Source: Sulfolobales archaeon (GTDB taxonomy: Archaea > Thermoproteota > Thermoprotei_A > Sulfolobales > NBVN01). From it: DNA of 64,000 nt. The notes under the pieces were generated by a model. It worked only from the letters and a program-made list of their open reading frames with translations. It was not told where the DNA came from and did no database searches. The stretch lies in contig JAWBTQ010000001.1 in NCBI GenBank assembly GCA_038841535.1, positions 32,001 to 96,000 of the forward strand, written 5' to 3'. Within the stretch, counting starts at the first letter, position 1, and the number at the start of each line of letters is the position of its first letter. Below, one piece after another: positions 5,186 through 28,529 of this stretch. The position numbers and the translations under genes were made by a program.

Positions 5186-5487
5186 AACTGTTTGTGTTTC
5201 TTATCGGTTCATATCGGTTGGTGCTATTCCTCCTACGATTAATGCGTAAACCTCTTTTCCGCGGTCTAGCGGAAACGTTCATAAGTATCTCTACATAGGT
5301 TAGTGAGTGGAGACTCCCCGATGAGGGGTTGAGAGCTCCCTAGGGGCTCTCCCCGAGATACTCAAGATGCGGGGCGCCCGTGGTCGCCCTAAACCCCCTA
5401 AGCCCTATGAAGACCCGAGCGGAGTGCGGGGGAACCAGGATAATGCAATGAATTCAACCAATATAAACTAACATAAGAGCTGAACCC
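5186..5487 (+). mobile_element. Non-autonomous TnpB mini-element, copy A (left end, promoter, leader hairpin, tnpB 3' end/omegaRNA scaffold, right end)
   Basis: Colinear similarity to 28249..28529 (AACTGTTT..TTCATATC; GAAACGTTYATAAG; GATGAGGGGTYGAGAGC; GGCTCTCCCCGAGATACTCAAGATG..GACCCGAGCGGA..GAGCTGAACCC). The 3' part reads RYSRCG, like crenarchaeal TnpB tails. Confidence 0.7.
5272..5285 (+). promoter_or_regulatory. BRE/TATA-like promoter of mini-element A
   Basis: GAAACGTTCATAAG, homologous to GAAACGTTTATAAG at 28294 and GAAACTCTTGTAAG at 9803. Confidence 0.5.
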
Positions 5488-5551
5488 CAAAGAGCTACCT
5501 TAGCTGATACCCGACGCTACTTGATGTCTCAAAGAGCTACGCATACTCAGC

Positions 5552-6754
5552 TTAAACTACCTGCTTCAGTGTTGAGTCCACCTCATCAGAGAACTCTTCT
5601 TGGTACGTAATTATCGCTCTATCTCCAGGGTTTAAAGTCATTCCTCTCGCTAGTGGGTAGGCAATCCAGGCATCACCCGACCTAACTGCTAGCACACTCC
5701 CGCCGTACTTCCTTAAGTGCTGACCCAGCTCGGTTATGTTCAGCTGCTTTGTGATTGTGACAGTTCTAACCCTCTCCCCCAGGCTCTCGAATACATTGCT
5801 GAAGAGCTCTCTATAGTCCTTGGGGAACTCTTCTTGAAGGCTCGGTATGCTGCCTATGGTAGTACTGGCGTCAGCTATGTCCTCGAGTTCCTTTAAGAGA
5901 GTAGCTAACCCTATAAAGGTATCTGGGTCTATAGAGCCAGCAGTATTCTTTAGTAAGTCCATGGTCTCCATATGCTTCCAGTCTATGTATATCTCAAGAT
6001 CGTTTATCTCCTCCTTTAGCTCTGGAGTGTGCTCTACTAGTACGTAGTGAGCTAGGTCTAGCATCAGAACAGTACAGTCCTTAATGTTCACTAAGCTCTT
6101 AACTACGTCCTCTAGCTCTCTAACACCGATGATCTCCAACCTGTACTCTACACCGTAGTCGTTAAGTAGGTGTAGAACGTTCTCTTTAAATCCCCTTAAG
6201 TACATCAAGGAGCCTTTTTTAATCACCTCGGTTTGCTTAGGCATGAACCTGTACTCACCGCCTTCAATTACTGCTAGGACGTCCACTGGGTACTTATCCG
6301 TTAAGTCTAGTACTTTAAAGTCTTCCTTAGCCGGTAGCCTAGCAACGACTTCTCCGTCTGCGTAGTGTATAACCTGGTTGTAGCTAATCCCGGGAGACCT
6401 ACCGACTAAGAGTGTATAGACTATGTCTTTCACCGAGTCCGAGATCGTGTCTACCGAAGAACCGTAGTAAAACGAGAGTAAGCTAGCGTACCCTCCTTTC
6501 CTAGACTTCCCGAAAGCCATTGCGTTGTGCATCACGAAGTGACCTACGCTCTCGCTGACGAGTCTGTCGAGGTCGAGTATCTTCATAGCTAGTTCGTAGT
6601 CTCTCGCGAAGTAGGCATAGAAGGCTAGATCTATAGCTATGTTCGTCATCTTCCAGATACCTTCGAGTACGTTTCTAACCGTGTCAGGTCTGTACCTGAC
6701 GACAGGAGGACTCCGGTGGAATCTTCTGTGTACTTCGGGAGTGAGTCTGGACAA
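5552..6754 (-). CDS. PhoU-domain / TrkA-C (RCK_C) regulatory protein
   Basis: Two PhoU-like helical repeats (xxDLAxY ... xxISD/DIADA), each followed by a TrkA-C-like segment. Confidence 0.7.
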   Translation of the reverse strand: MSRLTPEVHRRFHRSPPVVRYRPDTVRNVLEGIWKMTNIAIDLAFYAYFARDYELAMKILDLDRLVSESVGHFVMHNAMAFGKSRKGGYASLLSFYYGSSVDTISDSVKDIVYTLLVGRSPGISYNQVIHYADGEVVARLPAKEDFKVLDLTDKYPVDVLAVIEGGEYRFMPKQTEVIKKGSLMYLRGFKENVLHLLNDYGVEYRLEIIGVRELEDVVKSLVNIKDCTVLMLDLAHYVLVEHTPELKEEINDLEIYIDWKHMETMDLLKNTAGSIDPDTFIGLATLLKELEDIADASTTIGSIPSLQEEFPKDYRELFSNVFESLGERVRTVTITKQLNITELGQHLRKYGGSVLAVRSGDAWIAYPLARGMTLNPGDRAIITYQEEFSDEVDSTLKQVV

Positions 6755-6863
6755 TACACCATCCTCATTAATAACTAGTGTTACAGGTTTTAAACGTAGT
6801 GAGTGAGCTTATTTAACTATTCACTTACTCGATAGAAGGAGTAGGTGGAGGAAAATTGCCAGG

Positions 6864-8000
6864 TTGAGAGAATTCATAGTATCTCTGGTTACGCTGGCGC
6901 TCATCGAGGTTTTCGCCGGGCTATCACTAAAGTTCAATGTCGAGCTACTTGTCGCATACTCTGTCGTACTGATCCTAATACCGGGGCTCATGGACTTAAG
7001 GGGGGATGTTTACGGTGCTATAGGTTACCGCTTCACTAAAGGGCTTCACTTAGGCCTCACTCAACCGAAGTTACTGAATAGGTTCAACTTAATTAACGCT
7101 TCGACAGGCTACGTAAACTCGATTGTAGTGACGTTCCTCCTGTGCTTAATCGGTGTGGGGCTATCTCTAGTGAGTAAGTTGAGCATGCCGGACTTCCTAT
7201 CCCTAATCTTCATAGCCTCATTCTCAACTGTCTCAGTATTCGTTGTACTGACACCAGTTATACTGGCTGTAATCGCCTACATGTTTAAGCTCGGTCACGA
7301 CCCCTCACCCTTCGTGGCAACGGTTGTTACAGGTATCGGAGACGTTATGACTCCTGTAGTCTTGATAGGTGTTGCCTACATGCACGAGCTGTTCCCCTAC
7401 TTCCTCAAAGCTCTATTCGTACTGGCCTCCCTAGGTTTGACGGTAGCACTAACAGCATACATGGTTAGAGTCGGAGAGTTAAAGAACCTCATCGAGAACC
7501 TCGTTTCGTCGACACTAGCGTCTACTGGGAGTAGTCTCGGAGGCTTCTACCTAGCTCTGTCGGTGGGTTTCATCGCCGAGAACCCGGAGATTCTGGGAGT
7601 AATACCAGCCTTTAACGCAGTAATAGGGGCCGCAATGGGCTACCTCAGCAACTCCCTTAACGTAGACTTACACATAGGTACAGACAGATATAGGAATACT
7701 TACTACAGAAACTCTGTTGCGGGACTTATGGCGACACACGCATCAGTACTAACGGCGTTAGCTGCTGTCACTATCTTCTCCAAAAGCGCTCTATCGAGGG
7801 CTCTAACCATCGCCCTCGGTGTAGCTCTATCCTGCTTAATACTGTATTTGGTATCAACTCTAATAACGTACTTACTGACAGTGGTATCGTTCCACCACGG
7901 CTGGGACCCTGATAACTTAGTCTTTCCAGTAATGACTACGTTTGTAGACCTCATGGGGCCTGTAATACTCACTGTTATAGCCATCCACCTACTGCCCTGA
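6864..8000 (+). CDS. MgtE/SLC41-type magnesium transporter (integral membrane part)
   Basis: Duplicated motifs PGLMDLRGD/PAFNAVIG and GHDPS/GWDPDN..PVMTTFVDL; multiple TM segments. Confidence 0.8.
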   Translation: MREFIVSLVTLALIEVFAGLSLKFNVELLVAYSVVLILIPGLMDLRGDVYGAIGYRFTKGLHLGLTQPKLLNRFNLINASTGYVNSIVVTFLLCLIGVGLSLVSKLSMPDFLSLIFIASFSTVSVFVVLTPVILAVIAYMFKLGHDPSPFVATVVTGIGDVMTPVVLIGVAYMHELFPYFLKALFVLASLGLTVALTAYMVRVGELKNLIENLVSSTLASTGSSLGGFYLALSVGFIAENPEILGVIPAFNAVIGAAMGYLSNSLNVDLHIGTDRYRNTYYRNSVAGLMATHASVLTALAAVTIFSKSALSRALTIALGVALSCLILYLVSTLITYLLTVVSFHHGWDPDNLVFPVMTTFVDLMGPVILTVIAIHLLP

Positions 8001-8253
8001 AGCTGAGGCAGGTTACTAAGATCACTTGATCTCTTCAACTAGAACTATAGAGAGTATGTACTTAAGGAGCTTCCTAGATCAAAGGACACTCGATCTATTA
8101 TGTGTATTCCTCTCTAAACCAACTATACAAAAAGTTGCTGAACGTGCTTTCCGCAATATCTTTCCACAATAATAGGTTAGTCGTTAAAGCAAAGGATGTA
8201 TGAGGTGCTATGTAATCTGTGGGCAGGGATTTAGTAGAGAAGAGAACTTGGGT

Positions 8254-8327
8254 TTACTCGAAGTTCGCCTTGAGAACTCTAATAACGTTTTCGTATGCTA
8301 CTTTTCTAAGGTCCCCTTCTGAGAACC
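8254..8327 (-). pseudogene. C-terminal remnant of a membrane dipeptidase (M19)-like gene at the tnpB insertion site
   Basis: Immediately after the element end it reads (G)FSEGDLRKVAYENVIRVLKANFE*, resembling M19 C-termini. Confidence 0.45.
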
Positions 8328-8455
8328 GTTTCCAGCCCCAAGTTTTTGTAGGTTTTTCTAGGACGGGTTGTGCCTCAGCCCTGCGGTTCACTGTGGCTAC
8401 TAGCCACTCTACGCGGGGGTCATGGGCACCGTTCGAGCCCAACGGCACGGGGCTC
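8326..8455 (-). ncRNA. Putative omegaRNA/reRNA scaffold overlapping the tnpB 3' end
   Basis: This segment is conserved in a separate copy at 9864..9991, and both copies end at GGAAACGG. Confidence 0.6.
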
Positions 8456-9463
8456 ACATCCAGTTTTAGGGCTATGTTCCATGCTCCTATTACGTCTCTG
8501 TCGTGTGTGAATCCGCATTTGCCGCATTTTACGGGTCTGGGGCTCCAGCCTCTCCTCTGGGCATTGCCCGTCATTGGAGACAGGCTGGAGCCGTACAGGA
8601 CACTTCCTGGATGTGTTCCTCGGATCTACGAACTCTACTCTTACACCGTGTTCTACTGCTTTCTCTACTAACTGCTTCTGGATCCCTCTGATGACTGATT
8701 GTTTGAGTCTATGGGCATCTAGTGGTCTTAATCTTAATCCATTCTTCTCCAGTGCTCTATCCTGGAACCTCTTGGGAAGCTTCTCCAGAACAACAACAGC
8801 TCTTTCCTCCTTAGCTACCTTAACCAGGAAAGATGCAACCTTGCTCCTCAAGTCTCTTTTGGCATGCTCCTCTCGTAGCTTCCTCAAAGCTATCCTGAGA
8901 GACCTCGTGTTGTTTCCGTACCTCTCCTGGATAGCTCTTCTCCTGTAGGCATAGCCTAGAACTATTTTGCTGTGGTTGGTTACTATTGTTATTGCTTTGT
9001 TGCCGGGGAGTATGAAGAGAGTTACGTTGTTCTCGTTAATATCCACACCGATAACCTTGCTGTACTTCTCCCCTTGCTCAGCACTCCTGGAGAACACTAC
9101 GTAGAGCTTGAGCTTCCCATTCTCAAGCTTCCACCTACAAGAGCTTCTGAGAACCCACCCAGTGTTGTAGTACATGTAGAACTGCTTGTGGAGAAGCAAA
9201 GGTATGTTCACCCACCTCACGTGGGTTTCTACCGAGACTCCCTGGAGAGCAAGCTTCCACATCTGGTTATCGCAACCGACATTCCACTGCTTAACCTCCG
9301 GCTTGTCCGTGAAAGCAAGACCCTTCTTCAGCTTGAGGAAGGACTTCAGCCTAGCAGATGCATCACGTACTGCTTCGATTTCTGTTAACATAATAGCCCT
9401 GGTCCATGCCTTCCCAACCAACTCTAGTTCGAGAGAAGCCTCTAGGAAAGGTTTGTGGAAGCG
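8326..9463 (-). mobile_element. tnpB: tnpB (RNA-guided endonuclease, IS607/IS605 superfamily), 5'-truncated and frameshifted
   Basis: RuvC motifs GVDINEN, VLEKL and DRDVIGAWNI. The Zn finger TSRKCPV[C]..CGKCG is split by a frameshift at about 8593 between ORFs 8420..9421 and 8254..8574. Confidence 0.9.
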
Positions 9464-9759
9464 TTAGTGGGTGGTCGAGAGAGTAAATAGAGTTGAGAGG
9501 GTGTCTACAAAGCATAAATGAGTTGAAGTTTTCTACTCACTCAAACTCAAGCCTAGGTACTTCTTAAACAGCGTTTTAAGGATTCTGTATACTTCTTCGC
9601 ATCCCCGCCCAGCGTTCTGCGCTTCGAGAGCATGCCGCTTAGGCGAATAGTCTCGACCCTAGCTTCCTCGAAGAGCTGAAAAAGCTTGTACGTCAGAGAA
9701 GCCTCTCTAGACTCTGCTCTTTGAGGAGCTCTTTAGCAATTCCGGGCAGCCTTGAGTAG

Positions 9760-9991
9760 CTACTTCGGGTTTCATATCTTTTCGTATTGGTTGATGTGGA
9801 TTGAAACTCTTGTAAGTATCTCTATACGTAGTGATATGTGGAAGTAACTTGATGAAGAGTCGAGAGCCCCGTGCCGTTGGCTCGAAGAGTGCCACGACCT
9901 CCTCGTGAAGTGGCTGGTAGCCACCGTGAACCGCGGGCAAGAGGTACAACCCGTCCTAGAAAAACCTACAAAAACCTGGGGCGGGAAACGG
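9760..9991 (+). mobile_element. Non-autonomous TnpB mini-element, copy B (same leader as A and C, scaffold matching the adjacent tnpB)
   Basis: TTCGGGTTTCATATC (9764), GAAACTCTTGTAAGTATCTCTA (9803) and GATGAAGAGTCGAGAGCC (9851), followed by an inverted near-copy of 8326..8455. Confidence 0.75.
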
Positions 9992-10150
9992 GGATTCCAT
10001 AGTACTCAAGGACCTAGGAGTAGTTAGATGTATTAAGGTGAGGTGTGGCAGTAGGACTCATATCGGGGGCAGCTAAGAGCGAAGATACTCTTCAACCCAG
10101 ATGAAGATAAACAGTATATCCCGTACTGTATGAGGTCTCCGAGGAGGCTT
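9992..10150 (+). pseudogene. Degenerate N-terminal fragment of another TnpB-like gene
   Basis: Broken frames read DSIVLKDLGVVRCIKVR..THIG and RAKILFNPDEDKQYI..YEVSEE, resembling the TnpB WED region. Recognised from memory only. Confidence 0.4.
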
Positions 10151-10249
10151 CTACGACAGATGTAGCTGGGAGAGATGGGCCGACGACACTTAGAGTGAGA
10201 TAAGCTGATGGAAACAGTCTTTGCTAAATCAAAAATATTTTTATATTTT

Positions 10250-11071
10250 TTATACTATTTCCAATAACTCATACGTCAATTCAGATGTCTTAGTTTCCAT
10301 CATGAAGTATACGCATAGTGTATACTCCTTATAATGAGACACCCATATATCTGCCTTAGTTATATTAGCAAAGTGTGGATTATTGGGGTTAGGTGTAAAC
10401 ACAAACTTATCGACGTTTAAGGTAGTGCTTCCGTATGATATTGAAGCTGATGATACATGAGTTAATGTACCTATTTCTGGAGGTGTATAAGGCCATAGTA
10501 TCATTGCAGCCAAGAATTGATGGGGGATGACGAAGAAGTTCATAAATAAGCCTACAGTCTCTGCTACGACGTATTCTGCCATATATGGAGGTATTTCTTT
10601 TCCATTGAACATTACCCTAGGCGTAATTCCAGTCTGTTTTGGAAGCCATATAATGACTGTTGTGTTACCGCTTTCTTCTTCAATTATAAATTCTATCCTC
10701 GTGTATTCCACTCCTCCTACTACTTCAACTCCCTTATTATGGTAATAGAAGATCTCTATCTTTAATTCATTGTCAACGCGGTCGTAATCCTTTAACCTCC
10801 ACTTCATATAACGTACTAAGTTTATGAATTCCTCAAAGGCCTCAATATACTTCTCTTCAGGTGGTGGTGTAGTTGTGTAGGGGGTATACGTAGTAGAAGT
10901 AAGTGGAGTAGTCATCGGTGTTGTTGCATGTGGAGAGGTAGGAGTTGTGTAGGGGGTATACGTAGTAGAAGTAGCTGGACCTCCAGGCTGTAAAGCTGAC
11001 ATTAAGCCATAGATTACAGCAACAGATACTATAGTTACTACAGCCACAACCAAAAATAAAGGTATTTTCAA
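10250..11071 (-). CDS. Membrane-anchored surface protein with Thr/Pro-rich linker; AT-rich, likely acquired
   Basis: N-terminal TM/signal segment, T/P-rich stalk and visibly AT-rich sequence with AT-rich flanks. Confidence 0.75.
   Translation of the reverse strand: MKIPLFLVVAVVTIVSVAVIYGLMSALQPGGPATSTTYTPYTTPTSPHATTPMTTPLTSTTYTPYTTTPPPEEKYIEAFEEFINLVRYMKWRLKDYDRVDNELKIEIFYYHNKGVEVVGGVEYTRIEFIIEEESGNTTVIIWLPKQTGITPRVMFNGKEIPPYMAEYVVAETVGLFMNFFVIPHQFLAAMILWPYTPPEIGTLTHVSSASISYGSTTLNVDKFVFTPNPNNPHFANITKADIWVSHYKEYTLCVYFMMETKTSELTYELLEIV
10871..10973. repeat. 31-bp exact direct repeat (10871-10901 and 10943-10973) encoding TSTTYTPYTT
   Basis: AGTTGTGTAGGGGGTATACGTAGTAGAAGTA occurs twice. Confidence 0.9.
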
Positions 11072-11194
11072 TATTACACCAAATATGATGTATAGTTGTT
11101 GTTTATAAATCTTTTAAGCTAAAAAACACTAAAAATGAGCATTTCATCATAAATAAATTACATGTACCACGTCAGGAACTATTTAAAGTGGACA

Positions 11195-11520
11195 TTATAT
11201 CTTCTTCGTAGAACTTCTTTAGAAGCTCTCCCTATTCCTCATCAACACTACATCGCTATATTCCTGTAGTCAACGTTTTGCGGATAGGCTTGGTACGCTC
11301 CCACACTAAGCTCTCACTCCTGTTTCTCCAGAATGAACTCGCTTAAGGGCATCTTTTGCTACTTCAATATCTATTCGTCTCCTAACACTTCTCTAAAGGC
11401 TCCCTTAGTATTGAAAAGCTCTCATAATCGTCTCCGAGGGATCCCTAGAGATCCCTAGCTCTACCTAGCTTCTCTAGTAAGCAGAGGAGTAGCTTCTCCC
11501 TATTCTCCTACGAGACCTTC
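11195..11520 (-). pseudogene. Decayed 3' fragment of an Lhr-family ATP-dependent helicase
   Basis: Frame-broken peptides AFREVL..DIEVAKDALKRVHSGE..VPSLSA..LQEYSDVVLM..LLKKFYE resemble the archaeal Lhr C-terminus. Confidence 0.55.
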
Positions 11521-11654
11521 CACGGGTTTAGGCTCTCGAACTACACCGACCGTTATCATACCTATGAAGAGTTACTGCTCTACATAAAACATCTCATGGT
11601 TGCGAGGGAAACCGTGAAACGATGGCTTTATGAGTAATCAGCCCCCATGGGGTG

Positions 11655-11732
11655 TGGCGGGCCCGCCGGGATTTGAACCCGGGACCACCGGCTTAGAAGG
11701 CCGGCACCCTATCCTGGCTGGGCCACGGGCCC
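11655..11732 (-). tRNA. tRNA-Arg (TCT), CCA encoded, no intron
   Basis: GGGCCCG acceptor stem, anticodon arm CCGGC-CTTCTAA-GCCGG, GGTTCAAATCC T arm and a GCCA end. Confidence 0.95.
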
Positions 11733-11772
11733 ATTACTCCTCTTAAGCTTTACTGTCGGGCTTTAAATCTCT

Positions 11773-12834: not shown

Positions 12835-12843
12835 TAGCGACCC

Positions 12844-13377
12844 CTAGTCCGAACCTAGAACCTCCTTCATCCTCCTAACTCCGTCTATTTCGTCAATGAA
12901 CCTAGCTACTGAAGACGGTACGTAAGACCTCCAGCTCTCGTCACCAGTAACCATGAGCCTCCTGATCTTAGTAGACGAGTACCTCCCCCTCTCGTAGGGA
13001 GGCGGTATGAGCACGTCATAGCCAGCCTCTCTAAAAAGCCTAACTACTAGCGGGTTTCTAGCTACTCCATACTTAAACTTAGGTACGTATAGCTGAACGT
13101 AAGAAGGCCACACAAAGTTCATCAGTATATCGGGAACTGGTATGATGTAGACCCTACTCAAGTCCAACCCGAACTCAGCTACCGCGAGTTTAAGCATCAA
13201 AACCCTCTCACCAGCAGTAAACGGATTAACAACGGTATGAGACTCTTGAGCCGTACCAACAGCAACGATGAGCTCGTCAACCCTATCTAGAGCCCACTTA
13301 ATTACCTCAACATGACCTAGGTGGACGGGTTGAAACCTACCCGGATAGACTGCTCTAATTACGTCACTCCAGACCAC
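12844..13377 (-). CDS. nadM: Nicotinamide-nucleotide adenylyltransferase
   Basis: GRFQPVHLGH, NPFTAGER and SSTKIR. Confidence 0.9.
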   Translation of the reverse strand: MVWSDVIRAVYPGRFQPVHLGHVEVIKWALDRVDELIVAVGTAQESHTVVNPFTAGERVLMLKLAVAEFGLDLSRVYIIPVPDILMNFVWPSYVQLYVPKFKYGVARNPLVVRLFREAGYDVLIPPPYERGRYSSTKIRRLMVTGDESWRSYVPSSVARFIDEIDGVRRMKEVLGSD

Positions 13378-15297: not shown

Positions 15298-15337
15298 AAA
15301 TATCGGCACCAAGCCGTTACACTCGTGGGGCTTGGCT

Positions 15338-15440
15338 CCGACGTGTGCTCATATATGTGCTCATATGAGTTGTTGCTACTACCTCATTTCCCCACTCTCC
15401 AACCATTCCCTGTTCTCGTCATGCTTTAGAAGGCCGGTTT
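15338..15440 (-). mobile_element. Degenerate right-end/omegaRNA remnant of a TnpB element
   Basis: Tandem ATATGAGCACA repeats ending near CGG, preceded by GACGAGAAC..GGGAAATGAGG, resembling the copy A/C tail. Confidence 0.35.
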
Positions 15441-21264: not shown

Positions 21265-21440
21265 CTAGAACTACACCACACTCTTTTTAAGTCTTACCTG
21301 TTAAACCTGTGTTTAATGGAGTAGCTTTAAAATTTGGTGGGAAAACTCTCGTAGAGTACATGCCTACACATTATTTAGAAATGTGAAGCATCCTGCGTGC
21401 TTATATATGTGATTAAACACCTTGGTATGGTGGTATAGTA

Positions 21441-23060
21441 TTGACAACATCATCTGAATACCACCCCAAGTTATATGAGCCCATAGTCTTGGTCATTGGG
21501 CTCATCTTGGCACTATTTGGTGCTATAATCGGTATGGAGCTAATCTGCAGGGTTGGGATCAATCCTAACACGTCCATAATTGGTGCCCTCATAGCTATAG
21601 CGTTTTCGGCCATTCCTGTCCAGATAGCTAGAACAATGCGCAATGTACACAGGGTTAACCTCATGCAGACGGTAATCTCTGGTGCTACCTTTCAAGCCGG
21701 GAACGTGTTCTTGCTGACGATAGCGGTACCGTACCTACTCGGGCTTACTGAAGGAACGTATTTCGCCGGTGTAGTTATAGGTGTCGTAATCGCTGGATTT
21801 ATAGATATACTGCTTTCCTACTGGATCTTCGACTCCCCATTTTATCCAGCAAGAAATCCATGGCCTCCTGGAATAGCAACAGCTGAAGCCATTAAAGCTG
21901 CTCTAGGTAGGGGTAAGAGAGCTCTAATTCTGCTGTACGGCATGATCTTCGGGGGTGCCCTCACTTACCTGGGCTACCCAGGCGATGTAGTAGGTATAAC
22001 GCTCATAACGCAGATAATAGCTATAACGTCCTTCGGTATAGGACTGATACTGAGAGCCTACGGTCCGACACTCGTTGGCATAGACTTCTATAAGATATAC
22101 GCGCCTCAAGGCATTATGGTCGGTGCTGGAATCGCGGCACTAATACAGTTCGTTCTACTCTACACCAGGGTTAGGAGAAAGCATAGTTCTCAGTCGGCTC
22201 AGAGCTCTGAGTCAAGTCTCCCACCGACAGTAGTCGGTGCTAGTGAGGCTCTGAGGAAGTTAGGTTTAGCACTAGGTCTCTTCATAGCCGGTGCTCTAGT
22301 TGCTGGTTTAATAACGGGAATAAACGGGATGATAAGTCCGGGAATGTTCCTCCTGTGGGTAGTCTACTTCGGCTTCCAGGCTTGGTTTACTACTCTAATC
22401 TGCGCGCTCTCAGGGATGTACGCTGGCTGGTTCCCTGCTTTCGCTACCGCACTAGCCGCACTAGTCATAAGCCTCGTCTTCGGATTTCCACCACTTGCCG
22501 CGGGTATAGGTGTAGCCTACGTCGCTGCTACAGGACCTGGAATGGCCGACCTATCCTATGACCTAAAGACCGGGTGGATCCTCAGAGGCGAGGGAAGAGA
22601 CCCTAACTTCGAGAGAATAGGGAGGAAGTGGCAGTTCTACGCCAAAGTGCTCTCTCTAGCAGTCTCCTTAATAATGATCGCAGTGTTCTATAGAGCCTAC
22701 TTCGCGGGTCTCAACCTTTTCCCACCGGCAGCTAAGACCCTAGCTGCTACAGCTAAGGCAGCAGCAGACCCTGAATTAGCGAGGTGGTTACTCATGTGGG
22801 CACCAGCAGGCTTCGTACTACAGATACTCGGAGGGCCAGAGAGGCAGATAGGGATACTGCTGGCTACGGGACTCATGATATCTAACCCGCCCGCAGGCAT
22901 AGCAGTATTAGTTACGGTAGCGGCTAGGCTCGCACTACTGAAGGCCCTAGGAGCAGAGAGGCTTAGAGACATATTCTATGTAGGCGGAGCTGGGGCGGTC
23001 GGAGGCTCCGCAATAGTGTCTTTCATAGTATACACACTAAGGGCCTACTTGAAGATTTAG
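21441..23060 (+). CDS. OPT/YSL-family oligopeptide transporter
   Basis: NTSIIGA, NLMQT..SGAT, WPPGIATAE and DLKTG; many TM segments. Confidence 0.85.
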   Translation: MTTSSEYHPKLYEPIVLVIGLILALFGAIIGMELICRVGINPNTSIIGALIAIAFSAIPVQIARTMRNVHRVNLMQTVISGATFQAGNVFLLTIAVPYLLGLTEGTYFAGVVIGVVIAGFIDILLSYWIFDSPFYPARNPWPPGIATAEAIKAALGRGKRALILLYGMIFGGALTYLGYPGDVVGITLITQIIAITSFGIGLILRAYGPTLVGIDFYKIYAPQGIMVGAGIAALIQFVLLYTRVRRKHSSQSAQSSESSLPPTVVGASEALRKLGLALGLFIAGALVAGLITGINGMISPGMFLLWVVYFGFQAWFTTLICALSGMYAGWFPAFATALAALVISLVFGFPPLAAGIGVAYVAATGPGMADLSYDLKTGWILRGEGRDPNFERIGRKWQFYAKVLSLAVSLIMIAVFYRAYFAGLNLFPPAAKTLAATAKAAADPELARWLLMWAPAGFVLQILGGPERQIGILLATGLMISNPPAGIAVLVTVAARLALLKALGAERLRDIFYVGGAGAVGGSAIVSFIVYTLRAYLKI

Positions 23061-23189
23061 ATATAGCATTAGCCGTATCTCAACCTAAGCTCATTAAAGC
23101 TAAAATGTTTTTCAGTACTCTATTGTTTAGCTAAGTGTTAGTGAGTCGTCTTTCATTATGCTTGGCCCTGGTATTGCCCCACTCTATAT

Positions 23190-23440
23190 AGGGAGTTGAT
23201 GGAGTATCGATGCTTATCCCTCGAGATTCTAGACTCTAATACGTAGACATCGTGAGATTGCCTCAACTCCTAGGGGTGTACTATGGTTGGTACTAACACT
23301 ATGGAAGACGATCTCCGCGAGTATTGAGAGAGAATAAGTTGGAGATTGAAGAAACACTCAATGATTATCGATAAACTCACTGCTGCTGATTCTGCTATTA
23401 GAGTATGCTACAGTGTATCTGCTGGGAGGGGGTGAGTGCA
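23190..23440 (+). pseudogene. Possible decayed Lrp/AsnC-type regulator fragment
   Basis: Broken peptides LEILDSN..EIA..GV..RLKK; weak resemblance only. Confidence 0.2.
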
Positions 23441-23470
23441 CACGACTTTTGATGTTGAGAAGTGCGTAGC

Positions 23471-25054
23471 TTAGTGAAGTGTTTTCCTGAGTACCACTCC
23501 CACTCTTTGCTTGCAGTCGATCGCGCCGTCTTCAACAACTACTCTTCCGTTGATAATTACGTGTTTTATGCCTTTCGGGTACCTATGGGGGTCTACGTAT
23601 GTAGCAGTATCTTCAATAGCGTAGTAGTCAAATATTACTATGTCCGCCTTCAGTCCCGGCCTGATGAGGCCTCTATCCCAAACGCCTAGCTTCCTAGCGG
23701 GTAGTGATGTCATCTTTCTAACAGCTTCGGGGAGTGAAAGCGATCTCCTTTCTCTCACATACCTAGCGATGATCCTAGGGAAGGTCCCGTAGCTTCTCGG
23801 GTGCGGCTTACCGACACCTAACCTCGTTACACTGCCGTCGCTACCTATAGCCACTAGGGGGTGGGATATTACCTCATCTACTTCCTCGGGATTCATAGTG
23901 AACCCGACGATCCTAGTTGCTAGGTTGTCATTGATCAGTAGCCTAACTACGGCCTCTACAGGGTCTATCCCAAGTTCCTGAGCCACTCTCGATACTCGCA
24001 TTCCCTCAAGCTTCTCGTTGCTGGGTGAGCGAGCTATCTGCACGTCTTCCCAGTTTATTTCAGTAGTGAATTCTTTTCTAAGCTTCTCGACTACGTCTGA
24101 GTTCCTAAGCTTCTTCAGAATCTCTTCCCTGCTTCCTGACCTGTACTCGGGTGGGAGCAGAGCGAGAAGCCCCATGGAGTATGCCTCGTAGGGATAGGCA
24201 TCCGCGCTTACATCATACCCTCTACTAGCGTAGTCTGAGATAAGTGATAGAGCTCTGCTGGTTTTACCCCAGCTTGCTCTCCCACTCGCCTTCAAGTGGG
24301 ATATCTGAACTCCGGCCCCGGACTCAAGCCCCACTTCGATGGACTCCAGTACTGAGTCAACAAGTCCTAAACCCTGGTTCCTCATATGCGTTGCGTAAAA
24401 CCCACCGTACCTAGCTACGACTTTAGCAAGCTCCACTACCTCCTTATTATCGGCAAACATGCTTGGCACATACCTGAGACCACTGCTCATACCGAAAGCC
24501 CCAGCCTCCATAGCCTCCCTAACTAAGTCTTTCATAACCACGAGATCCCTATCCGACGGTCTAATGTCTTCGTAGCCTAACACGGCCGCTCTAACAGTTC
24601 CGTTTCCGACTAGAGTAGCTATGTTTATAGATGGCCTAAGATTTTCAAGAGAGCTTAGGTATTCACCGAAGCTGGACCACGTAACAGCTACATCAGGCCG
24701 AACGGACTTCATCATGCTTTCATACTCACGCCTGTTGATATCTGTCAGTGGTGCTGGTGAGCTACCACAGTTACCGACAACTACTGTGGTAACACCCTGG
24801 AGCACGTAGTTATCAGCTGTCGGCAACTCAAAGATCGATATGTCGCTGTGATTATGTATATCTATAAACCCAGGAGCCACAAACAAGCCACTAGCATCAA
24901 TAACCTTCTCAGCACTCAAACCCGAAAGGTCTCCTATAGACCTAATCGAGTCTCCCACTACACCCACATCGGCCTTAAACAGAGGAGAGCCTGAACCATC
25001 GATAACGATCCCGTTCTTTATAATGAGGTCGAACCCTGACACGCTAAGCACCAC
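23471..25054 (-). CDS. N-acyl-D-amino-acid deacylase (D-aminoacylase) family amidohydrolase
   Basis: PGFIDIHNHSD, GNCG, THMR, SHLK, GSDG and PHPRSYGTFPR. Confidence 0.9.
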   Translation of the reverse strand: MVLSVSGFDLIIKNGIVIDGSGSPLFKADVGVVGDSIRSIGDLSGLSAEKVIDASGLFVAPGFIDIHNHSDISIFELPTADNYVLQGVTTVVVGNCGSSPAPLTDINRREYESMMKSVRPDVAVTWSSFGEYLSSLENLRPSINIATLVGNGTVRAAVLGYEDIRPSDRDLVVMKDLVREAMEAGAFGMSSGLRYVPSMFADNKEVVELAKVVARYGGFYATHMRNQGLGLVDSVLESIEVGLESGAGVQISHLKASGRASWGKTSRALSLISDYASRGYDVSADAYPYEAYSMGLLALLPPEYRSGSREEILKKLRNSDVVEKLRKEFTTEINWEDVQIARSPSNEKLEGMRVSRVAQELGIDPVEAVVRLLINDNLATRIVGFTMNPEEVDEVISHPLVAIGSDGSVTRLGVGKPHPRSYGTFPRIIARYVRERRSLSLPEAVRKMTSLPARKLGVWDRGLIRPGLKADIVIFDYYAIEDTATYVDPHRYPKGIKHVIINGRVVVEDGAIDCKQRVGVVLRKTLH

Positions 25055-25110
25055 TACGACAATGCGGGTCTGCTAAAAAGCCCAATGCATAAAGTAAGTC
25101 CTGGTTACTG

Positions 25111-25214
25111 AGGGGTTTAGTTCTTATATCAGTTCGTATGAGTCGGCACATCGCCTCACCCGTTTACCGCCTTTACGAAGATTTCTCACTCCACTAGCCA
25201 CAGGGTTCGGAAAG
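25111..25214 (-). mobile_element. Degenerate omegaRNA/right-end remnant related to copies A and C
   Basis: Minus strand CCGAACCC..GTGAGAAATC..GGCGGTAAACGGG..GATATAAGAACTAAACCCC parallels the A/C tail ending GCTGAACCC. Confidence 0.4.
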
Positions 25215-25237
25215 AGGCTTGTTATATATGTTGTCTA

Positions 25238-26242
25238 GTGGGGATTGCTTGGGTTTGTGTGTTGTTGGAGGACTTAGCTGAGAGCGTCGCATACTACTCT
25301 ATTGTAGTAGTAATTTCCTCTGCTCTTTACTCGTACTTCCTGGCTCGAGCGCGCAGAGTTCTGGAAGAAGATTTTCCCTCAGTTTTCCTCAGGTTTACTC
25401 TCGCGCTAGCCGTGTACATCACTATTCATTCTTCTCTCAGCCTGCTATTGATGTATAGTAACTTCCTCTATGGATGTATGCCCGACGTAGTGCTGTACAC
25501 TGTAGCTATTCTAGCTCTAGCTCTAGTCGCTGGTGTGCTATTGGGGTCTAGAGCTGTATGTAGTGCGCTAAGCGTACTCGGTTCCGGCGTTATGAGGAAG
25601 GTACTTAGAGTCCTTAGTGAAGGTGAGGTAGAGGGCTACAAGTTCTGGCTATGCTCTCGATGCCCTATTGGTGTCTTCACATCCTTCACGGATAACAGGT
25701 TCTACGTACACACTAAACTAGTAGAGGTTCTTAATAGAGAAGAGCTAAAGAGCGCTTTGCTCCGTGAGACTTTTCACAGTGAAGATAGGTTTCTCAGCGT
25801 AATGGACGCTGTGAGTACTCTATCATGGTGCTTAGCAGTACTCCTGTTCGCCCTGCTATCTGCCTGCATTCCAGGACTCCACGCTAGTGCTTACTTAAAT
25901 GCAGCCGCAACAACAATTATAGCCAGTACGGTTGGATGGATACGGGAGCACGCAGCAGACCTCCGATACGCCGAGTCGTCGAGTCCGGAGCACCTGCTCA
26001 GCGCTGCAGCAAAAGTATATAGAGTAACACTAGAAGAAGCTCGAAGAGTGGTGGAGAAAGGTATCGAGAGGGCCGAGGTGATTTACACCATTAACACGCT
26101 CTGCCTCAAAGTATCTATTCGCAGAACTCTTGGAGAGTACTTTGCGAACCTCGTAATACCCAGCCTAGTACTTCACATACGCAGAGACCCACCACCGACG
26201 ATGAGGGCGGTAGCTATATGCGGAGTACGTAAATACCTATAA
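25238..26242 (+). CDS. M48/HtpX-like membrane protein with degenerate zinc motif
   Basis: LNREELKSALLRETFH (HExxH changed to RExxH) and REHAAD; several TM segments. Confidence 0.6.
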   Translation: MGIAWVCVLLEDLAESVAYYSIVVVISSALYSYFLARARRVLEEDFPSVFLRFTLALAVYITIHSSLSLLLMYSNFLYGCMPDVVLYTVAILALALVAGVLLGSRAVCSALSVLGSGVMRKVLRVLSEGEVEGYKFWLCSRCPIGVFTSFTDNRFYVHTKLVEVLNREELKSALLRETFHSEDRFLSVMDAVSTLSWCLAVLLFALLSACIPGLHASAYLNAAATTIIASTVGWIREHAADLRYAESSSPEHLLSAAAKVYRVTLEEARRVVEKGIERAEVIYTINTLCLKVSIRRTLGEYFANLVIPSLVLHIRRDPPPTMRAVAICGVRKYL

Positions 26243-26410
26243 GATGAAACGAGTATTAGAAATAGCTGCTAATTAGGGGCTCGCGCTTGAGAAAATTGAA
26301 AGGCTGTGACGCCAGCTGGTACTTACCTCTGTACTTAAGCTCTCAGCTAATTCCAGAGCACTTACCTGCCGCAGACACTACTAGAGGTTTAGGTCTAGAC
26401 TTCGGTGCCG

Positions 26411-27004
26411 TCATGTCGATATTTCTAGCTTCTTCATTATGTACCTAGATCTAGCTCTAGCAAAACTCTTTACTGACTCGGTGAGGTTATTCCCCAAAGT
26501 ATCTATCGTTACTATTAACGGTCCCAGCTCCTTGACTCTGAGAACCCAGAGCGCTTCAGGTATGCCCAGGTCTAGCCACCCGACACCTACGACTTCCTCA
26601 ACTGCCTCTGCTCCCAGAGCCCCGCAGCCCCCCGGAAAAATAGCGTAGACTGCTTTAAACTTCCTGCACGCCTCAGTTGTTCGGTTTCCCATGCCTCCCT
26701 TACCTATTACCAATCTAACACCCGTTCTCTCTATGAACTCGTACTCGTAGTACTCCATCCTCATGCTCGTAGTAGGCCCTATAGACCTGCAGATCCACTT
26801 ACTCCCCGACTTCACCATGACCGGGCCTGCGTGGAATATAGCTAGACCCCTGAGGTCGAATGGTAGAGGTACTCCATCGACTAAGAACCTAGCGTGAACA
26901 GCGTCTCTAGCTGTCACTAATGTGCCAGTTACGTAGACTACCTCCCCTGCCTTAAGTGATGCAACTTCCTCTTCCGAGATAGGTAAGTAGATTACCCTAC
27001 CCAA
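26411..27004 (-). CDS. Class I fumarate hydratase / L-tartrate dehydratase beta subunit
   Basis: TARDAVH, GPTTSMRME and IGKGGM. Confidence 0.9.
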   Translation of the reverse strand: MGRVIYLPISEEEVASLKAGEVVYVTGTLVTARDAVHARFLVDGVPLPFDLRGLAIFHAGPVMVKSGSKWICRSIGPTTSMRMEYYEYEFIERTGVRLVIGKGGMGNRTTEACRKFKAVYAIFPGGCGALGAEAVEEVVGVGWLDLGIPEALWVLRVKELGPLIVTIDTLGNNLTESVKSFARARSRYIMKKLEIST

Positions 27005-27911
27005 GAGTCACACCTCCGTGGCTCAGTACCCTATGGGTAAGGTCAGAAAATATCCTTAGATGTCCGCGCCTAAGGGCCCAGCACGAAGTGCTTACTCCAA
27101 CAGCAAGTGTTGCTGGATGCCTGCCAGCGTACTCTACGTGAACTGCTAGCACGGTCTTCCTACCACCCAGTCCTTGGGGGCCTATGCCGAGCTCGTTGAG
27201 CAACCTTTCGAGTTCTTCCTCTAGCTCAGCCATTCTGGGGCTAGAGCTTCTAAAACCCACAGGCCTCAGTAGAGCTCTCTTAGATAGTGAGGCAGCCACT
27301 TCAGCTGTAGGGCCTATGCCTACACCAATTACTAGCGGAGGGCATGCGTGAATGCCGTACTCTACAACGGTATCTACTACGTACTCTATTAAGCCCTCAA
27401 GACCTTGCGCTGGGTCGAGTACCCTAGCAGAGCCTGGCCTACTCGAACCACCACCCGCCATATACAGGTACACGTCAGCATAATCTCCGGGAACTAGAGT
27501 AGTCTCAACCCAAGGAATTCTAGGCCCTAGATTGTTGCCAGTATTTCTCCCAGTAGCTGGATCCACCACGTTAGGTCTTAAGAACCCCTCTACAGTAGTT
27601 TCAGTAACAGCCTCCTCGATTACCTTAAGTAGCTCTAGAGGGAAGGGAAACGAATTACCAAGCTCGACAAAGAACTCTAGCACACCAGTATCTTGGCATA
27701 GAGGTATAGACCTAGATATAGCTAGCTCAAGGTTCCTGAAGACTGCTTGGTAGACGAGCTTCGCGTGTTCCCCGACCTCGACATCGGAAGCCCTCCTCAA
27801 GGCCTCTATGACGTCATCCGGGAGCCTCGTAGAGACGGTGAATATGAATTTTTTGAGCGCTTCTTTAAGCCTGCCTTGGACCTCTATACTGGCAGTAGCC
27901 AGCAAGACCAC
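26997..27911 (-). CDS. Class I fumarate hydratase / L-tartrate dehydratase alpha subunit
   Basis: PLCQDTG, ACPP and SCWALR Fe-S ligands. Confidence 0.9.
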   Translation of the reverse strand: MVLLATASIEVQGRLKEALKKFIFTVSTRLPDDVIEALRRASDVEVGEHAKLVYQAVFRNLELAISRSIPLCQDTGVLEFFVELGNSFPFPLELLKVIEEAVTETTVEGFLRPNVVDPATGRNTGNNLGPRIPWVETTLVPGDYADVYLYMAGGGSSRPGSARVLDPAQGLEGLIEYVVDTVVEYGIHACPPLVIGVGIGPTAEVAASLSKRALLRPVGFRSSSPRMAELEEELERLLNELGIGPQGLGGRKTVLAVHVEYAGRHPATLAVGVSTSCWALRRGHLRIFSDLTHRVLSHGGVTLG

Positions 27912-28248
27912 CTAGCATAGCCTTATACTTGAAGAAAAATGCGTTAATCTCTTAAGAAATGGATAGACAAGTTTTAGCGCAAGCTTCTTCAATAAACACT
28001 GAGCTTTGTTGGCGATCAAACAGACTAAGGCATTCACTATGAACTACTCACGCTGTCTTGCGAGCTCTTTGAACCTATCTACGGAATGCGTGGAGAGTGA
28101 TATAGCTGGAAACAATTGGACTAGTCTCTCGAAATTATCGCAGCCTACCTCCATATCGTAGCCCTAGTGAATACAGATATGCCCGTAAAGCCACGAGAGT
28201 GGCAATAACCATACTCGCTAAAAAGGGTTCCCTTCCGCAGCCTTGTTT

Positions 28249-28529
28249 AACTGTTTCGGTTTTCATATCTGCTCATGTCTGTCGATATTGATCGAAACGT
28301 TTATAAGCACCTCATGGTGATATGCGTGGATGTACATAGATGAGGGGTCGAGAGCCACTCGATGATCTAGATGATGGCTCTCCCCGAGATACTCAAGATG
28401 TGGGGTGCTAGGGGTCACCCCGAACGCCCCCGAGCCCGATGAGAACCCGAGCGGAATGCGGGGGAAAGAGGACAAGGCAACGAAGTCAACCGATATAAAC
28501 CAAAATAAACCAAAACGAGAGCTGAACCC
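28249..28529 (+). mobile_element. Non-autonomous TnpB mini-element, copy C
   Basis: Homologous to 5186..5487; promoter GAAACGTTTATAAG at 28294-28307; tail translates RYSRCGVLGVTPNAPEPDENPSGMRG. Confidence 0.75.

What the first reader, a model, noticed from the sequence alone, without database searches (positions are those of the whole stretch)
5186..28529. Family of protein-less TnpB mini-elements that look like stand-alone guide-RNA cassettes
Seen: three dispersed 230-300 bp units (5186-5487, 9760-9991, 28249-28529) share one architecture. Each has a left-end motif (..GGTT(TT)CATATC), a GAAAC-TATA-like promoter, an SD/start-like GTGA..GTGGA and a GATGA-RRR-GT(C/T)GAGAGC leader. Each then jumps directly to the last about 130 nt of a tnpB gene and ends sharply against unrelated flanking DNA. 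Established: TnpB of IS200/IS605 and IS607 elements uses an omegaRNA made from the tnpB 3' end and right end, with the flank as guide. Inference: these units lost nearly the whole ORF but kept the promoter and scaffold, so they could express guides in trans for TnpB proteins encoded elsewhere, like a dispersed guide array.
Basis: partly seen in the sequence, partly recalled or inferred. Interest (0 to 1): 0.85.

Follow-up and report, generated by a model that had tools for sequence, protein, structure and literature searches.

The report
Protein-less TnpB mini-transposons keeping guide-RNA scaffold
The three units are real members of a large family of gene-less miniature transposons that kept the promoter end and the guide-RNA-coding end of a TnpB element, a kind of element already described elsewhere, here unusually abundant in a small hot-spring archaeal genome.

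Summary
The three units sit at the stated coordinates; only the left ends reach 10 nt further out. They are not isolated. The 1.56-Mb genome holds 56-57 copies of the U1/U3 scaffold. Of the 48 well-kept copies, 39 are protein-less minis, 7 are linked to tnpB coding sequence, and only one of those genes is intact.

Alignment with the full-length 1.5-kb element shows internal-deletion derivatives. They keep the left end, the 5' UTR, the first codons of tnpB (a hairpin) and the last ~131 nt up to the right end.

U2 is a one-off chimera. It joins that left half to the scaffold of a second, IS607-like TnpB family, which has its own minis.

The scaffold is the best-conserved module and keeps a predicted fold. 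Guides are simply the right flanks and have no second target. Transcription is not shown.

Palindrome-associated mini-elements (PATEs) that carry omegaRNAs needing TnpB in trans are already in print. Verdict: a new, very abundant member of a known kind. The "dispersed guide array" reading is not supported.

The parts
5176..5488 (+). U1: family-a long mini-element (313 bp). Left end with GGCCT pentamer 5176-5180 and core AACTG from 5186. Carries a 42-nt left-end segment also present in the full-length element. GAAAC 5272-5276 and TTCATAAG 5278-5285. tnpB-5' hairpin 5320-5357. Deletion junction 5357|5358. Scaffold and right end 5358-5488.
   Evidence: The left half is 182/183 identical to C10:14490-14672, while the right halves are only 99/131 identical.
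9748..9991 (+). U2: chimeric mini-element (244 bp). Family-a left half (AGCCT 9748-9752, hairpin arm ..GAGAGCC to 9868) joined at a GAGCC microhomology (9864-9868) to the family-b scaffold and right end (9864-9991, ending GCGGGAAACGG). It lacks the AGATGT motif that opens both scaffolds.
   Evidence: the only place covering both halves in the 5 genomes searched; the G002 copies that reach into the leader are ordinary family-b minis.
28239..28529 (+). U3: family-a long mini-element (291 bp). AGCCT 28239-28243. Left-end hairpin to GAAAC 28294-28298. TTTATAAG 28300-28307. tnpB-5' hairpin 28339-28388. Junction 28388|28389. Scaffold and right end 28389-28529, with a 10-nt insertion near the end.
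   Evidence: The left half is 96% identical to copies on C5 and C3. Contigs of other copies diverge exactly before 28239 (table 7).
8326..9421 (-). Frameshifted, N-terminally truncated tnpB of family b (IS607-like), with its own scaffold and right end at 8326-8455. It is a degenerate full-length copy next to U2, on the opposite strand.
   Evidence: Zn-ribbon region split over two frames; 74-81% identity to the intact C18 TnpB.

Best explanation
U1 and U3 are non-autonomous, protein-less internal-deletion derivatives (PATE/MITE-like) of a 1.5-kb TnpB-only insertion sequence, here called family a.

Each mini keeps four modules:
- the left end, with a sub-terminal hairpin;
- the tnpB promoter region and 5' UTR;
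- the first ~12-30 codons of tnpB, which fold into a hairpin;
- the last ~131 nt of the element, which is the tnpB 3' end plus the right end, the segment that encodes the omegaRNA scaffold in characterised TnpB elements.

U2 is a dead-end recombinant. It joins such a left half to the scaffold of a second, IS607-like element (family b), which has produced its own minis.

Shown: the descent, the architecture, the copy numbers, the conserved foldable scaffold, and the presence of one intact TnpB of each family.

Inferred: the minis are moved by a transposase supplied in trans. The minis that persist are those that still make an omegaRNA whose guide is their own right flank. That lets them borrow TnpB from the few full-length copies, so that an emptied donor site is cut and the mini is copied back. 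On this reading they are selfish parasites of both the transposase and the nuclease, not a host guide array.
For: Descent:
- The full-length element C19:1270-2766 carries the same left and right ends. It contains both junction halves in the tnpB ORF..GCTCTCCCCGAG|GGTAGC.. at the 5' end and ..TACAG|ATACACAAGATGTGGGG.. near the 3' end.
- Full-length copies in sister genome G002 are left end, TnpB only, right end, about 1.49 kb.

Numbers:
- 56 scaffold hits by nhmmer and 57 by covariance model.
- Of the 48 hits at 60 bits or more: 35 long minis, 4 short minis, 7 linked to tnpB coding sequence (1 of them intact), 1 duplicate from a contig overlap and 1 degenerate.
- The same excess is seen in relatives. 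Scaffold matches: G002 80, G007 56, G003 21, G004 8. Uninterrupted near-full-length tnpB: about 4 in G002, 2 in G003, none in G007 or G004.

Transposon type: no target-site duplication in 36 of 38 minis and no terminal inverted repeats. A conserved AGCCT sits at the left boundary.

Constraint on the scaffold:
- Mean pairwise identity is 0.70, against 0.56 for the left end, 0.53 for promoter/UTR and 0.58 for the hairpin, across 35 long minis.
- All junction variants (at least 5 kinds, including the short minis) share the same 3' breakpoint within a few nt.
- The independently formed family-b minis also break just upstream of the shared AGATGTG that opens both scaffolds.
- In the proposed fold, 85.7% of cells pair against 81.4% in shuffles (0/500) and 33-54% when partners are slid (48 copies). 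With 72 copies from 10 genomes, 87.3% pair against 83.0%, and 20 of 25 pairs change on both sides against 9.8 +/- 1.9 in shuffles (0/500).
- Codon-position diversity in minis is nearly flat, 0.25/0.27/0.29.

Nuclease available: C19 TnpB is 385 aa without stops and matches Pfam PF07282 and solved TnpB/Cas12f chains.

Against: - No transcript start, end or level could be seen. All runs laid were contigs, and the one RNA library holds only a relative's copies.
- A canonical TATA hexamer is present in only 13 of 35 long minis (crude scan, about 6 rows mis-anchored). The 4 short minis have no promoter region.
- Among the most recent copies the right half differs more than the left: 139/139 against 123/131, and 138/139 against 118/131. 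That looks like patchy recombination rather than simple purifying selection.
- The fold was derived from the same sequences it is tested on. Its strongest covariation (columns 48-69 and 49-68, CG<->GC) is carried by two haplotypes, so by few independent events. Alignment A4 is fitted to the model.
- Scaffold conservation could be inherited from coding parents or be required by the transposase.
- No transposase for family a is identified. There is no Y1 TnpA in this 84%-complete assembly. The only intact candidate is the IS607-type serine recombinase on C18. That recombinase was not found in G007 or G004, which do hold the minis.
- Only one intact family-a TnpB is assembled.
Confidence: 0.6

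Rival explanations
1. Passive mini-transposons. The units are mobilised or decaying deletion relics, and their scaffold segment survives for other reasons: it is part of the end the transposase needs, the copies are young, or recombination with full-length copies keeps refreshing it. The RNA, if made at all, does nothing.
For: - A canonical TATA is found in only 13 of 35 long minis, and the 4 short minis lack a promoter.
- Recent copies differ more in the scaffold than in the left half, and halves reassort.
- 27 of the 41 mini rows still read through to the ancestral stop region, which is compatible with youth (my count from the translations printed).
- Degenerate and scaffold-truncated copies exist: 8 hits below 60 bits, and C4:54871 and C4:114888.
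- No transcription has been shown.
Against: - The family is old and diverse, about 70% pairwise identity, and is spread over several genera. Yet the scaffold stays the most conserved module and keeps pairing.
- Scaffold-deleted derivatives are single, degenerate copies, whereas scaffold-bearing ones number 39.
- Two element families independently kept the segment starting at AGATGTG.
Confidence: 0.3
2. A dispersed guide array. The minis would be stand-alone guide genes that programme TnpB in trans against other DNA (viruses, plasmids, or host loci for regulation), like a scattered CRISPR array.
For: There are many more scaffolds than nucleases: 39 or more minis against 1 intact tnpB here, and 80 scaffolds against about 4 tnpB genes in G002. 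A left module has been recombined onto a foreign scaffold once, in U2.
Against: - Each 16-nt putative guide is simply the adjacent flank. Of the 46 guides tested, none has another site preceded by AGCCT in the genome; the extra matches at up to 2 mismatches have unrelated upstream sequence.
- The 20-mers of U1, U3 and U2 have 0 exact matches in the viral contig collection.
- The flanks are ordinary intergenic DNA between housekeeping genes.
- U2 is a single copy and lacks the scaffold's first motif.
- Not tested: mismatched viral targets, plasmids, or the guides of the other minis against viruses.
Confidence: 0.03
3. A host-useful or regulatory non-coding RNA. The conserved 5' hairpin plus scaffold would be kept because the RNA serves the cell, or modulates transposition by titrating TnpB or the transposase, as was proposed for tnpB-overlapping sotRNAs and a PATE RNA in Halobacterium.
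For: The block TCGATGAGGG..GAGAGC..GCTCTCCCCGAG is the best-conserved part of the left half although it no longer codes. Overexpressing a PATE-derived RNA changed growth in Halobacterium (passages read).
Against: Copy number varies from 0 to 80 among species of one genus. That is typical of selfish elements, not of a host function. There is no Rfam family match. The positions are not syntenic with the two relatives compared.
Confidence: 0.05

Closest known systems
PATEs (palindrome-associated transposable elements) of Haloquadratum walsbyi and other haloarchaea (PMC3119063, passages read)
   Same: Both are protein-less derivatives of IS605-type/TnpB ('IS1341-type') elements formed by deletion of the core. 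Neither has terminal inverted repeats or a target duplication. Both outnumber the full-length elements. [quoted passage not shown] The same puzzle applies: copies appear mobile where no intact Y1 transposase is seen.
   Different: - Here a sub-terminal hairpin is clear only at the left end.
- The ends resemble those of an IS607-like element in the same genome.
- Nearly all copies keep a ~131-nt scaffold, not a 52-bp terminal-only form.
- The host comes from hot-spring metagenomes, not brines.
PATE-like elements carrying omegaRNAs in Geobacillus stearothermophilus (Meers et al., preprint PMC10055086, passages read)
   Same: Minimal elements with conserved left and right ends and no genes. They are said to often encode omegaRNAs that need TnpB from other copies in trans. 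The homing and retention model is the mechanism proposed here.
   Different: - That work is on bacterial IS200/IS605 elements with a known Y1 TnpA. Here the host is archaeal and the transposase is unidentified.
- Here the minis also keep the tnpB promoter region and first codons.
- Copy number relative to genome size is much higher here.
- I read only passages. The supplementary figure that shows those PATEs was not seen.
sotRNAs and the PATE-derived RNA VNG_R0052 of Halobacterium salinarum (PMC4615843, passages read)
   Same: RNAs overlap the 3' end of tnpB. One expressed intergenic RNA consists of fused left and right ends.
   Different: Expression is shown there, not here. The motif there is a UUCA tetraloop related to Rfam HgcC. 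The present scaffold matches no Rfam family.
IS607-family TnpA(serine recombinase)+TnpB elements and their omegaRNAs (preprint 10.1101/2023.11.20.567912, passages read)
   Same: Family b here has the defining gene pair: a 210-aa MerR-like HTH plus resolvase-domain TnpA directly followed by TnpB. That paper shows TnpB working equally well with an omegaRNA supplied in trans. It also depicts a gene-less PATE with IStron ends; by the figure legend that PATE belongs to the IS605-family C. difficile IStron, not to an IS607 element.
   Different: There is no group I intron here. Family-b minis fuse the left end and promoter of the recombinase gene directly to the scaffold. Whether the recombinase moves family-a minis is untested.
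Classical MITEs
   Same: Short, gene-less, multi-copy, and dependent on a transposase in trans.
   Different: Classical MITEs have terminal inverted repeats and target-site duplications. Both were tested here and are absent.

Membership tests
PATE (gene-less IS200/IS605-type derivative) | Too short to encode a transposase or TnpB; no long ORF | tested here: met
   The units are 244-313 bp. The longest readings are M-R-G-stop in U1 and 23 aa in U3 (read). No ORF of 80 aa or more lies within U1 or U3; an 80-aa reverse-strand frame, 9707-9949, overlaps most of U2 and was not examined further.
PATE (gene-less IS200/IS605-type derivative) | Ends shared with a full-length TnpB-bearing element; arises by core deletion | tested here: met
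   Alignment with C19:1270-2766 and with G002 full-length copies.
PATE (gene-less IS200/IS605-type derivative) | No terminal inverted repeats and no target-site duplication | tested here: met
   There are 3-9 matches of 16 between the left-end start and the reverse complement of the right end. No flank repeat in 36 of 38 minis, and a 2-nt repeat in 2.
PATE (gene-less IS200/IS605-type derivative) | Palindromes (hairpins) close to both termini | tested here: inconclusive
   The left end has a conserved imperfect hairpin, GTTTC..GAAAC, with pairs kept in 24-33 of 35 copies. No comparable hairpin was found in the last 50 nt of the right end.
PATE (gene-less IS200/IS605-type derivative) | Mobilised by a Y1 (HUH) TnpA | tested here: not met
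   There is no PF01797 match in this genome, which is 83.8% complete. Y1 TnpA is present in 2 of 9 sister species. The one copy examined belongs to a canonical IS605 with different ends. Absence from an incomplete assembly is not proof.
IS607 family | Serine-recombinase TnpA (HTH plus resolvase domain) directly upstream of tnpB | tested here: met
   Met for family b only: C18:2053-2682 (210 aa, PF00239 at 3.5e-26) followed by the 423-aa TnpB. Full-length family-a elements carry TnpB alone.
IS607 family | Family-a ends are recognised by the same recombinase | not testable with these tools
   The only lead is sequence likeness. The left-end core GCAACTGTTT and the right-end block AAACCTA..GAGC.G.AAC are shared by families a and b (read). 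The recombinase was not found in G007 or G004, which hold minis.
omegaRNA (TnpB guide RNA) gene | Lies over the 3' end of tnpB and runs to the right end, with the guide taken from the flank | tested here: met
   Met by position. The scaffold is the last ~27 codons plus the tail of tnpB, up to the right end. The guide is inferred from position only.
omegaRNA (TnpB guide RNA) gene | Conserved secondary structure supported by covariation | tested here: inconclusive
   Pairing exceeds the shuffled and slid controls. However, the structure came from the same sequences, alignment A4 is model-fitted, and the main covariation is two haplotypes.
omegaRNA (TnpB guide RNA) gene | Transcribed and processed to a discrete RNA | tested here: inconclusive
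   One metatranscriptome, kept as contigs, holds contigs that join a leader hairpin to the scaffold (loose ends at 28367 and 28382). These come from other copies or relatives, and contigs cannot show ends or strand.
omegaRNA (TnpB guide RNA) gene | Bound and used by a cognate TnpB next to a TAM | not testable with these tools
   A cognate intact TnpB exists. AGCCT is a candidate TAM, from left-flank conservation only.
Classical MITE | Terminal inverted repeats and a target-site duplication | tested here: not met

The most novel reading that the evidence does not exclude
The minis are omegaRNA-only hyperparasites, and the genus runs a natural one-nuclease, many-guides system. A portable left module (promoter region plus a conserved 5' hairpin) drives a scaffold that is kept by selection because it recruits TnpB in trans. 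Left and right modules reassort freely among copies, and once even across two TnpB lineages (U2). As a result 10-20 guide cassettes per nuclease gene persist across species. That would be a living intermediate between a transposon-bound guide and an array of guides.
Probability: 0.15. Interest if true: 0.7.

Novelty: new member of a known kind. Interest (0 to 1): 0.4.

Why it matters
Gene-less derivatives of TnpB elements, and the idea that they borrow TnpB through their own omegaRNA, are already described. As far as my four literature searches and the passages I read show, that idea has been stated rather than tested.

This hot-spring archaeal genus offers a clean natural test case:
- Genomes are small (1.2-1.6 Mb).
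- Scaffold copies range from none to 80 per species.
- There are only a few nuclease genes, or none assembled intact.
- Two element families converged on the same architecture.
- Module shuffling between copies is clear.

If the minis are shown to load TnpB in trans, they would demonstrate parasitism of an RNA-guided nuclease by guide-only elements. They would also yield a compact archaeal, probably thermostable, TnpB with a defined scaffold and a candidate TAM (AGCCT). If not, they are ordinary mini-transposons.

Tried and rejected
Empty-site comparison across species. The U3 neighbourhood was found in G002 and G007, but the intergenic DNA between the conserved genes is not alignable. No empty site could be read, so the ends and the TAM rest on multi-copy alignment only.

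Laying public runs:
- All four runs were contigs.
- No contig skips U2 or U3.
- DNA contigs of three studies stop inside the U3 left end (28277).
- The joint 9868->28368 is another paralogous copy, not a rearrangement.
- Depth bins of 660 nt cannot show a small RNA.
- Parts without RNA cover are not evidence.

Guide targets. There was no second TAM-adjacent site in the genome and no exact viral match for three guides. A 16-mer of the scaffold hit 7 viral contigs, but none holds the scaffold by the covariance model, so those hits are chance.

Rfam. Only two tRNAs matched in the window at gathering score. On the units and parents the only hit was at chance level (sR53, E 0.68).

Ribozyme or C/D-box readings of the GATGAG...CGAG and ...CTGA motifs. 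I considered a hammerhead core and a box C/D or k-turn. No hammerhead or C/D family reached E of 1 or better apart from that chance hit. The GA/GA pairs flanking the 5' hairpin are noted but not tested.

Y1 TnpA as the mobilising enzyme. The copy next to a scaffold hit in G003 belongs to a canonical IS605 with unrelated hairpin ends, whose tnpB is interrupted by a family-a mini.

U2-like hybrids elsewhere. G002 places that extend into the U2 leader are plain family-b minis.

Promoter scan. The bacterial sigma-70 scanner was not used, because it does not suit an archaeon. My TATA hexamer count is crude.

One paper search failed on a term with a slash and was not repeated. Supplementary files of the papers were not opened; the PATE figures and tables of PMC10055086 and PMC3119063 may bear on how similar those elements are.

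Full report
**What is there**

The three units are real and align with one another. BLASTN of the units against the window's own genome gave dozens of hits. That genome is 1.56 Mb in 40 contigs and 83.8% complete; the window is C1:32001-96000.

Splitting each unit into a left and a right part showed two things. One left-end type is shared by all three units. There are two right-end types: 'a' in U1 and U3, and 'b' in U2.

A multiple alignment of 29 paired copies with their flanks defines sharp ends. Similarity starts at AGCCT-NNNGY-AACTGTTTCGGG and stops at ..AGAGCTGAACCCC. At the left boundary they are A 28, G 33, C 30, C 37 and T 33 of 41 rows, anchored by a loose motif with a few rows mis-anchored, and the bases further out are random. 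After the right end only a T is enriched (25 of 45).

There are no terminal inverted repeats and no target duplications.

**Copy number and classes**

An nhmmer profile of the 'a' right part finds 56 places, and a covariance model finds 57.

The 48 places scoring 60 bits or more were classified using the distance to a left-end profile, tblastn with the two TnpB proteins, and the alignments:

| Class | Count |
|---|---|
| Long minis (left end 116-182 nt upstream of the scaffold) | 35 |
| Short minis (59-60 nt upstream; left-end hairpin joined directly to the scaffold) | 4 |
| Attached to tnpB coding sequence | 7 |
| Same locus assembled twice (C1 start = C10 end, identical flank) | 1 |
| Degenerate | 1 |

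Only one tnpB of this family is intact: C19:1310-2464, 385 aa. Further fragments lie at contig ends (C9:2-739, C35:3540-4016, C19:22820-23131, C3:2-265), so the true number of full-length copies may be three or four. The remaining eight hits below 60 bits are degraded copies, and two scaffold-truncated single copies exist.

**Origin**

The full-length element C19:1270-2766 has the same left and right ends. The sequence ..GTG GTG AGT TAC TCG GTG AGG GGT GGA GAG C.. encodes ..VVSYSVRGGE.., and GCT CTC CCC GAG encodes ALPE. This N-terminus is conserved in sister species.

The RGGE and ALPE codons pair as a hairpin. The minis keep both arms but carry very different loops, and the hairpin is recovered by single-sequence folding in most long minis.

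The deletion joins ..CCCCGAG to ATAC(T/A)CAAGATGTGGGG, 131 nt before the right end. That point is about 27 codons before the variable C-terminal tail.

At least five junction variants differ in how much 5' coding sequence they keep. All share the 3' breakpoint within a few nucleotides. The same architecture and junction occur in G002, G007, G003, G019 and G038, the last in another family of the order.

**The second family and U2**

U2's right part matches the 3' end and downstream sequence of a different tnpB. That family has one intact element on C18. It consists of a 210-aa MerR-like-HTH plus resolvase-domain TnpA followed by a 423-aa TnpB, which is the IS607 arrangement.

The window itself holds a frameshifted, truncated copy of this family at 8326-9421 on the minus strand.

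Four protein-less copies join the left end of this element, with its TATA box, to the last ~140 nt (C1:128479, C1:223146, C2:51050, C26:1391). More of these exist in G002.

U2 instead carries the family-a left half, joined at a GAGCC microhomology. It therefore lacks the AGATGT that opens both scaffolds. In the five genomes searched it is the only place that holds both halves. I read it as a one-off illegitimate recombinant.

The two families share the left-end core GCAACTGTTT and a right-end block (AAACCTA..GAGC.G.AAC), and both scaffolds start with AGATGTG (read).

**Is the scaffold under constraint?**

For:
- Among 35 long minis the scaffold is the most conserved module. Mean pairwise identity is 0.70, against 0.56 for the left end, 0.53 for promoter/UTR and 0.58 for the hairpin.
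- A fold obtained with RNAalifold pairs 85.7% of cells, against 81.4% in shuffles (0 of 500) and 33-54% when the partners are slid.
- With 72 copies from 10 genomes it pairs 87.3% against 83.0%. Twenty of 25 pairs show a two-sided change, against 9.8 +/- 1.9 in shuffles (0 of 500).
- Codon-position diversity in the minis is almost flat.
- Two element families independently kept exactly the segment from AGATGTG to the right end.

Against:
- The structure comes from the same data, and alignment A4 is model-fitted.
- The strongest covariation is two haplotypes that also exist in coding copies.
- The youngest copies differ more in the scaffold than in the left half.

That last result, together with U1, reveals mosaicism. 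U1 is 182/183 identical to C10:14491 on the left but only 99/131 on the right, while that copy's right half is 127/131 identical to C1:46-176. Left and right modules recombine.

**Promoter and expression**

- U3 has a textbook archaeal TATA (TTTATAAG). U1 and U2 have degenerate ones.
- GAAAC is the 3' arm of the left-end hairpin.
- Only 13 of 35 long minis have a canonical TATA hexamer by a crude scan.
- Public runs that hold the window's DNA are labelled hot-spring metagenomes: 12 DNA rows in 6 studies, of which 6 rows may be the source.
- The single RNA library is kept as contigs and holds mostly a relative (72 of 142 laid pieces at 90-95% likeness). It contains contigs in which a leader hairpin runs into the scaffold, and its depth over the window is very uneven. 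This cannot show a transcript's ends, strand or level. I count it as a weak hint only.

**Guides**

The 16 nt after each right end were searched in the whole genome with up to two mismatches. Apart from the site itself there are only scattered matches without AGCCT in front. The 20-mers after U1, U3 and U2 have no exact match in the viral contig collection. Nothing suggests targets other than the element's own insertion site.

**Transposase**

No Y1 TnpA is found in this assembly. Two of nine sister species have one. The copy examined belongs to a canonical IS605 with different hairpin ends, whose tnpB is itself interrupted by a family-a mini.

The IS607-type recombinase is intact here. Relatives of it are found in 4 of 9 sister species, but not in G007 or G004, which hold 56 and 8 scaffolds. 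All of these are incomplete assemblies. The mobilising enzyme remains unknown.

**Distribution**

Scaffold matches were found in 18 of the 41 genomes searched.
- Within the genus: G002 80, G007 56, G003 21 and G004 8. None was found in G001, G005 (97% complete), G006, G008 or G009.
- Uninterrupted near-full-length tnpB: about four in G002, two in G003, none seen in G007 or G004.

**Comparison with the literature**

- Passages of Dyall-Smith et al. 2011 define PATEs. These are gene-less, repeat-free derivatives of IS605-type/TnpB elements formed by core deletion, and they are more numerous than the parents.
- Passages of Gomes-Filho et al. 2015 show RNAs over tnpB 3' ends and an expressed fused-left/right-end RNA.
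- Passages of the Meers et al. 2023 preprint state that PATEs often encode omegaRNAs that need TnpB from other elements in trans, and give the homing model.
- Passages of the IStron preprint show TnpB working with an omegaRNA supplied in trans, and depict a gene-less PATE with IStron ends (of the IS605-family C. difficile IStron, by its figure legend).
- That TnpB can process its own mRNA into omegaRNA I know only from the abstract line in a search listing.
- That IS607 inserts at GG is recalled, not checked.

**Verdict**

That idea is already in print. The 'guide array' extension has no support.

What is particular here:
- the archaeal hot-spring host;
- the very high ratio of minis to nucleases across several species;
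- retention of the promoter region and a conserved 5' hairpin;
- convergence of two families on the same breakpoint;
- evident shuffling of modules.

I score it as a new member of a known kind, with moderate interest.

Noticed in passing
window 5176-5488 versus G000 C10:14490-14803 and C1:46-315: Mini-elements are mosaics. U1 and the C10 copy are 182/183 identical in the left half but 99/131 in the scaffold. The C10 scaffold is 127/131 identical to that of C1:46-176, whose left half is only 62% like it. Left and right modules recombine near the deletion junction.
   Followed up: partly
window 5320-5357, 28339-28388; all long minis: The block TCGATGAGGG..GAGAGC[variable loop]GCTCTCCCCGAG is the most conserved part of the left half although it no longer codes. 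The main mini lineage has GATGAG where full-length copies have GGTGAG. The stem is flanked by GA on both strands, a possible k-turn-like motif. No function was tested.
   Followed up: partly
G000 C1:128479-128741 (-) and C3:66410-66485 (+): A family-b mini and a family-a left-end remnant each start immediately after what looks like the 3' end of a tRNA gene (GGTTCAAATCC.. / GGTTCGAATCC..). This may be a preferred landing place.
   Followed up: no
L051 = G003:C18:282-2296: A canonical IS605 (Y1 TnpA plus a third TnpB type, with CCTCGCCC-TTTA-GGGCGGGG hairpins at both ends) has its tnpB split by a family-a mini inserted in reverse orientation (about 1022-1300).
   Followed up: partly
G000 C17:10840-10860: The 3' region of that third tnpB type contains GCAGAGCTGAACCC, the same motif that ends family-a elements, about 60 nt before its own hairpin end. 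The motif may be an RNA feature shared among scaffolds rather than only a transposase site.
   Followed up: no
window 28860-29104: A 245-nt block in the long gene-poor stretch after U3 is 86-88% identical in two sister species, more than the neighbouring coding DNA (about 80%). It holds a 58-aa ORF on the minus strand (28886-29062) and has no Rfam match.
   Followed up: partly
window 10250-11071 (-): This 273-aa ORF has no Pfam family. It is the region with the highest summed depth in the RNA library, and many variant contigs are present in all four runs laid.
   Followed up: no
G000 C6:10789-11716: A decayed IS607-type recombinase gene (several stops) and a short TnpB-b-like fragment lie directly upstream of a family-a mini (C6:11443-11716).
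   Followed up: no
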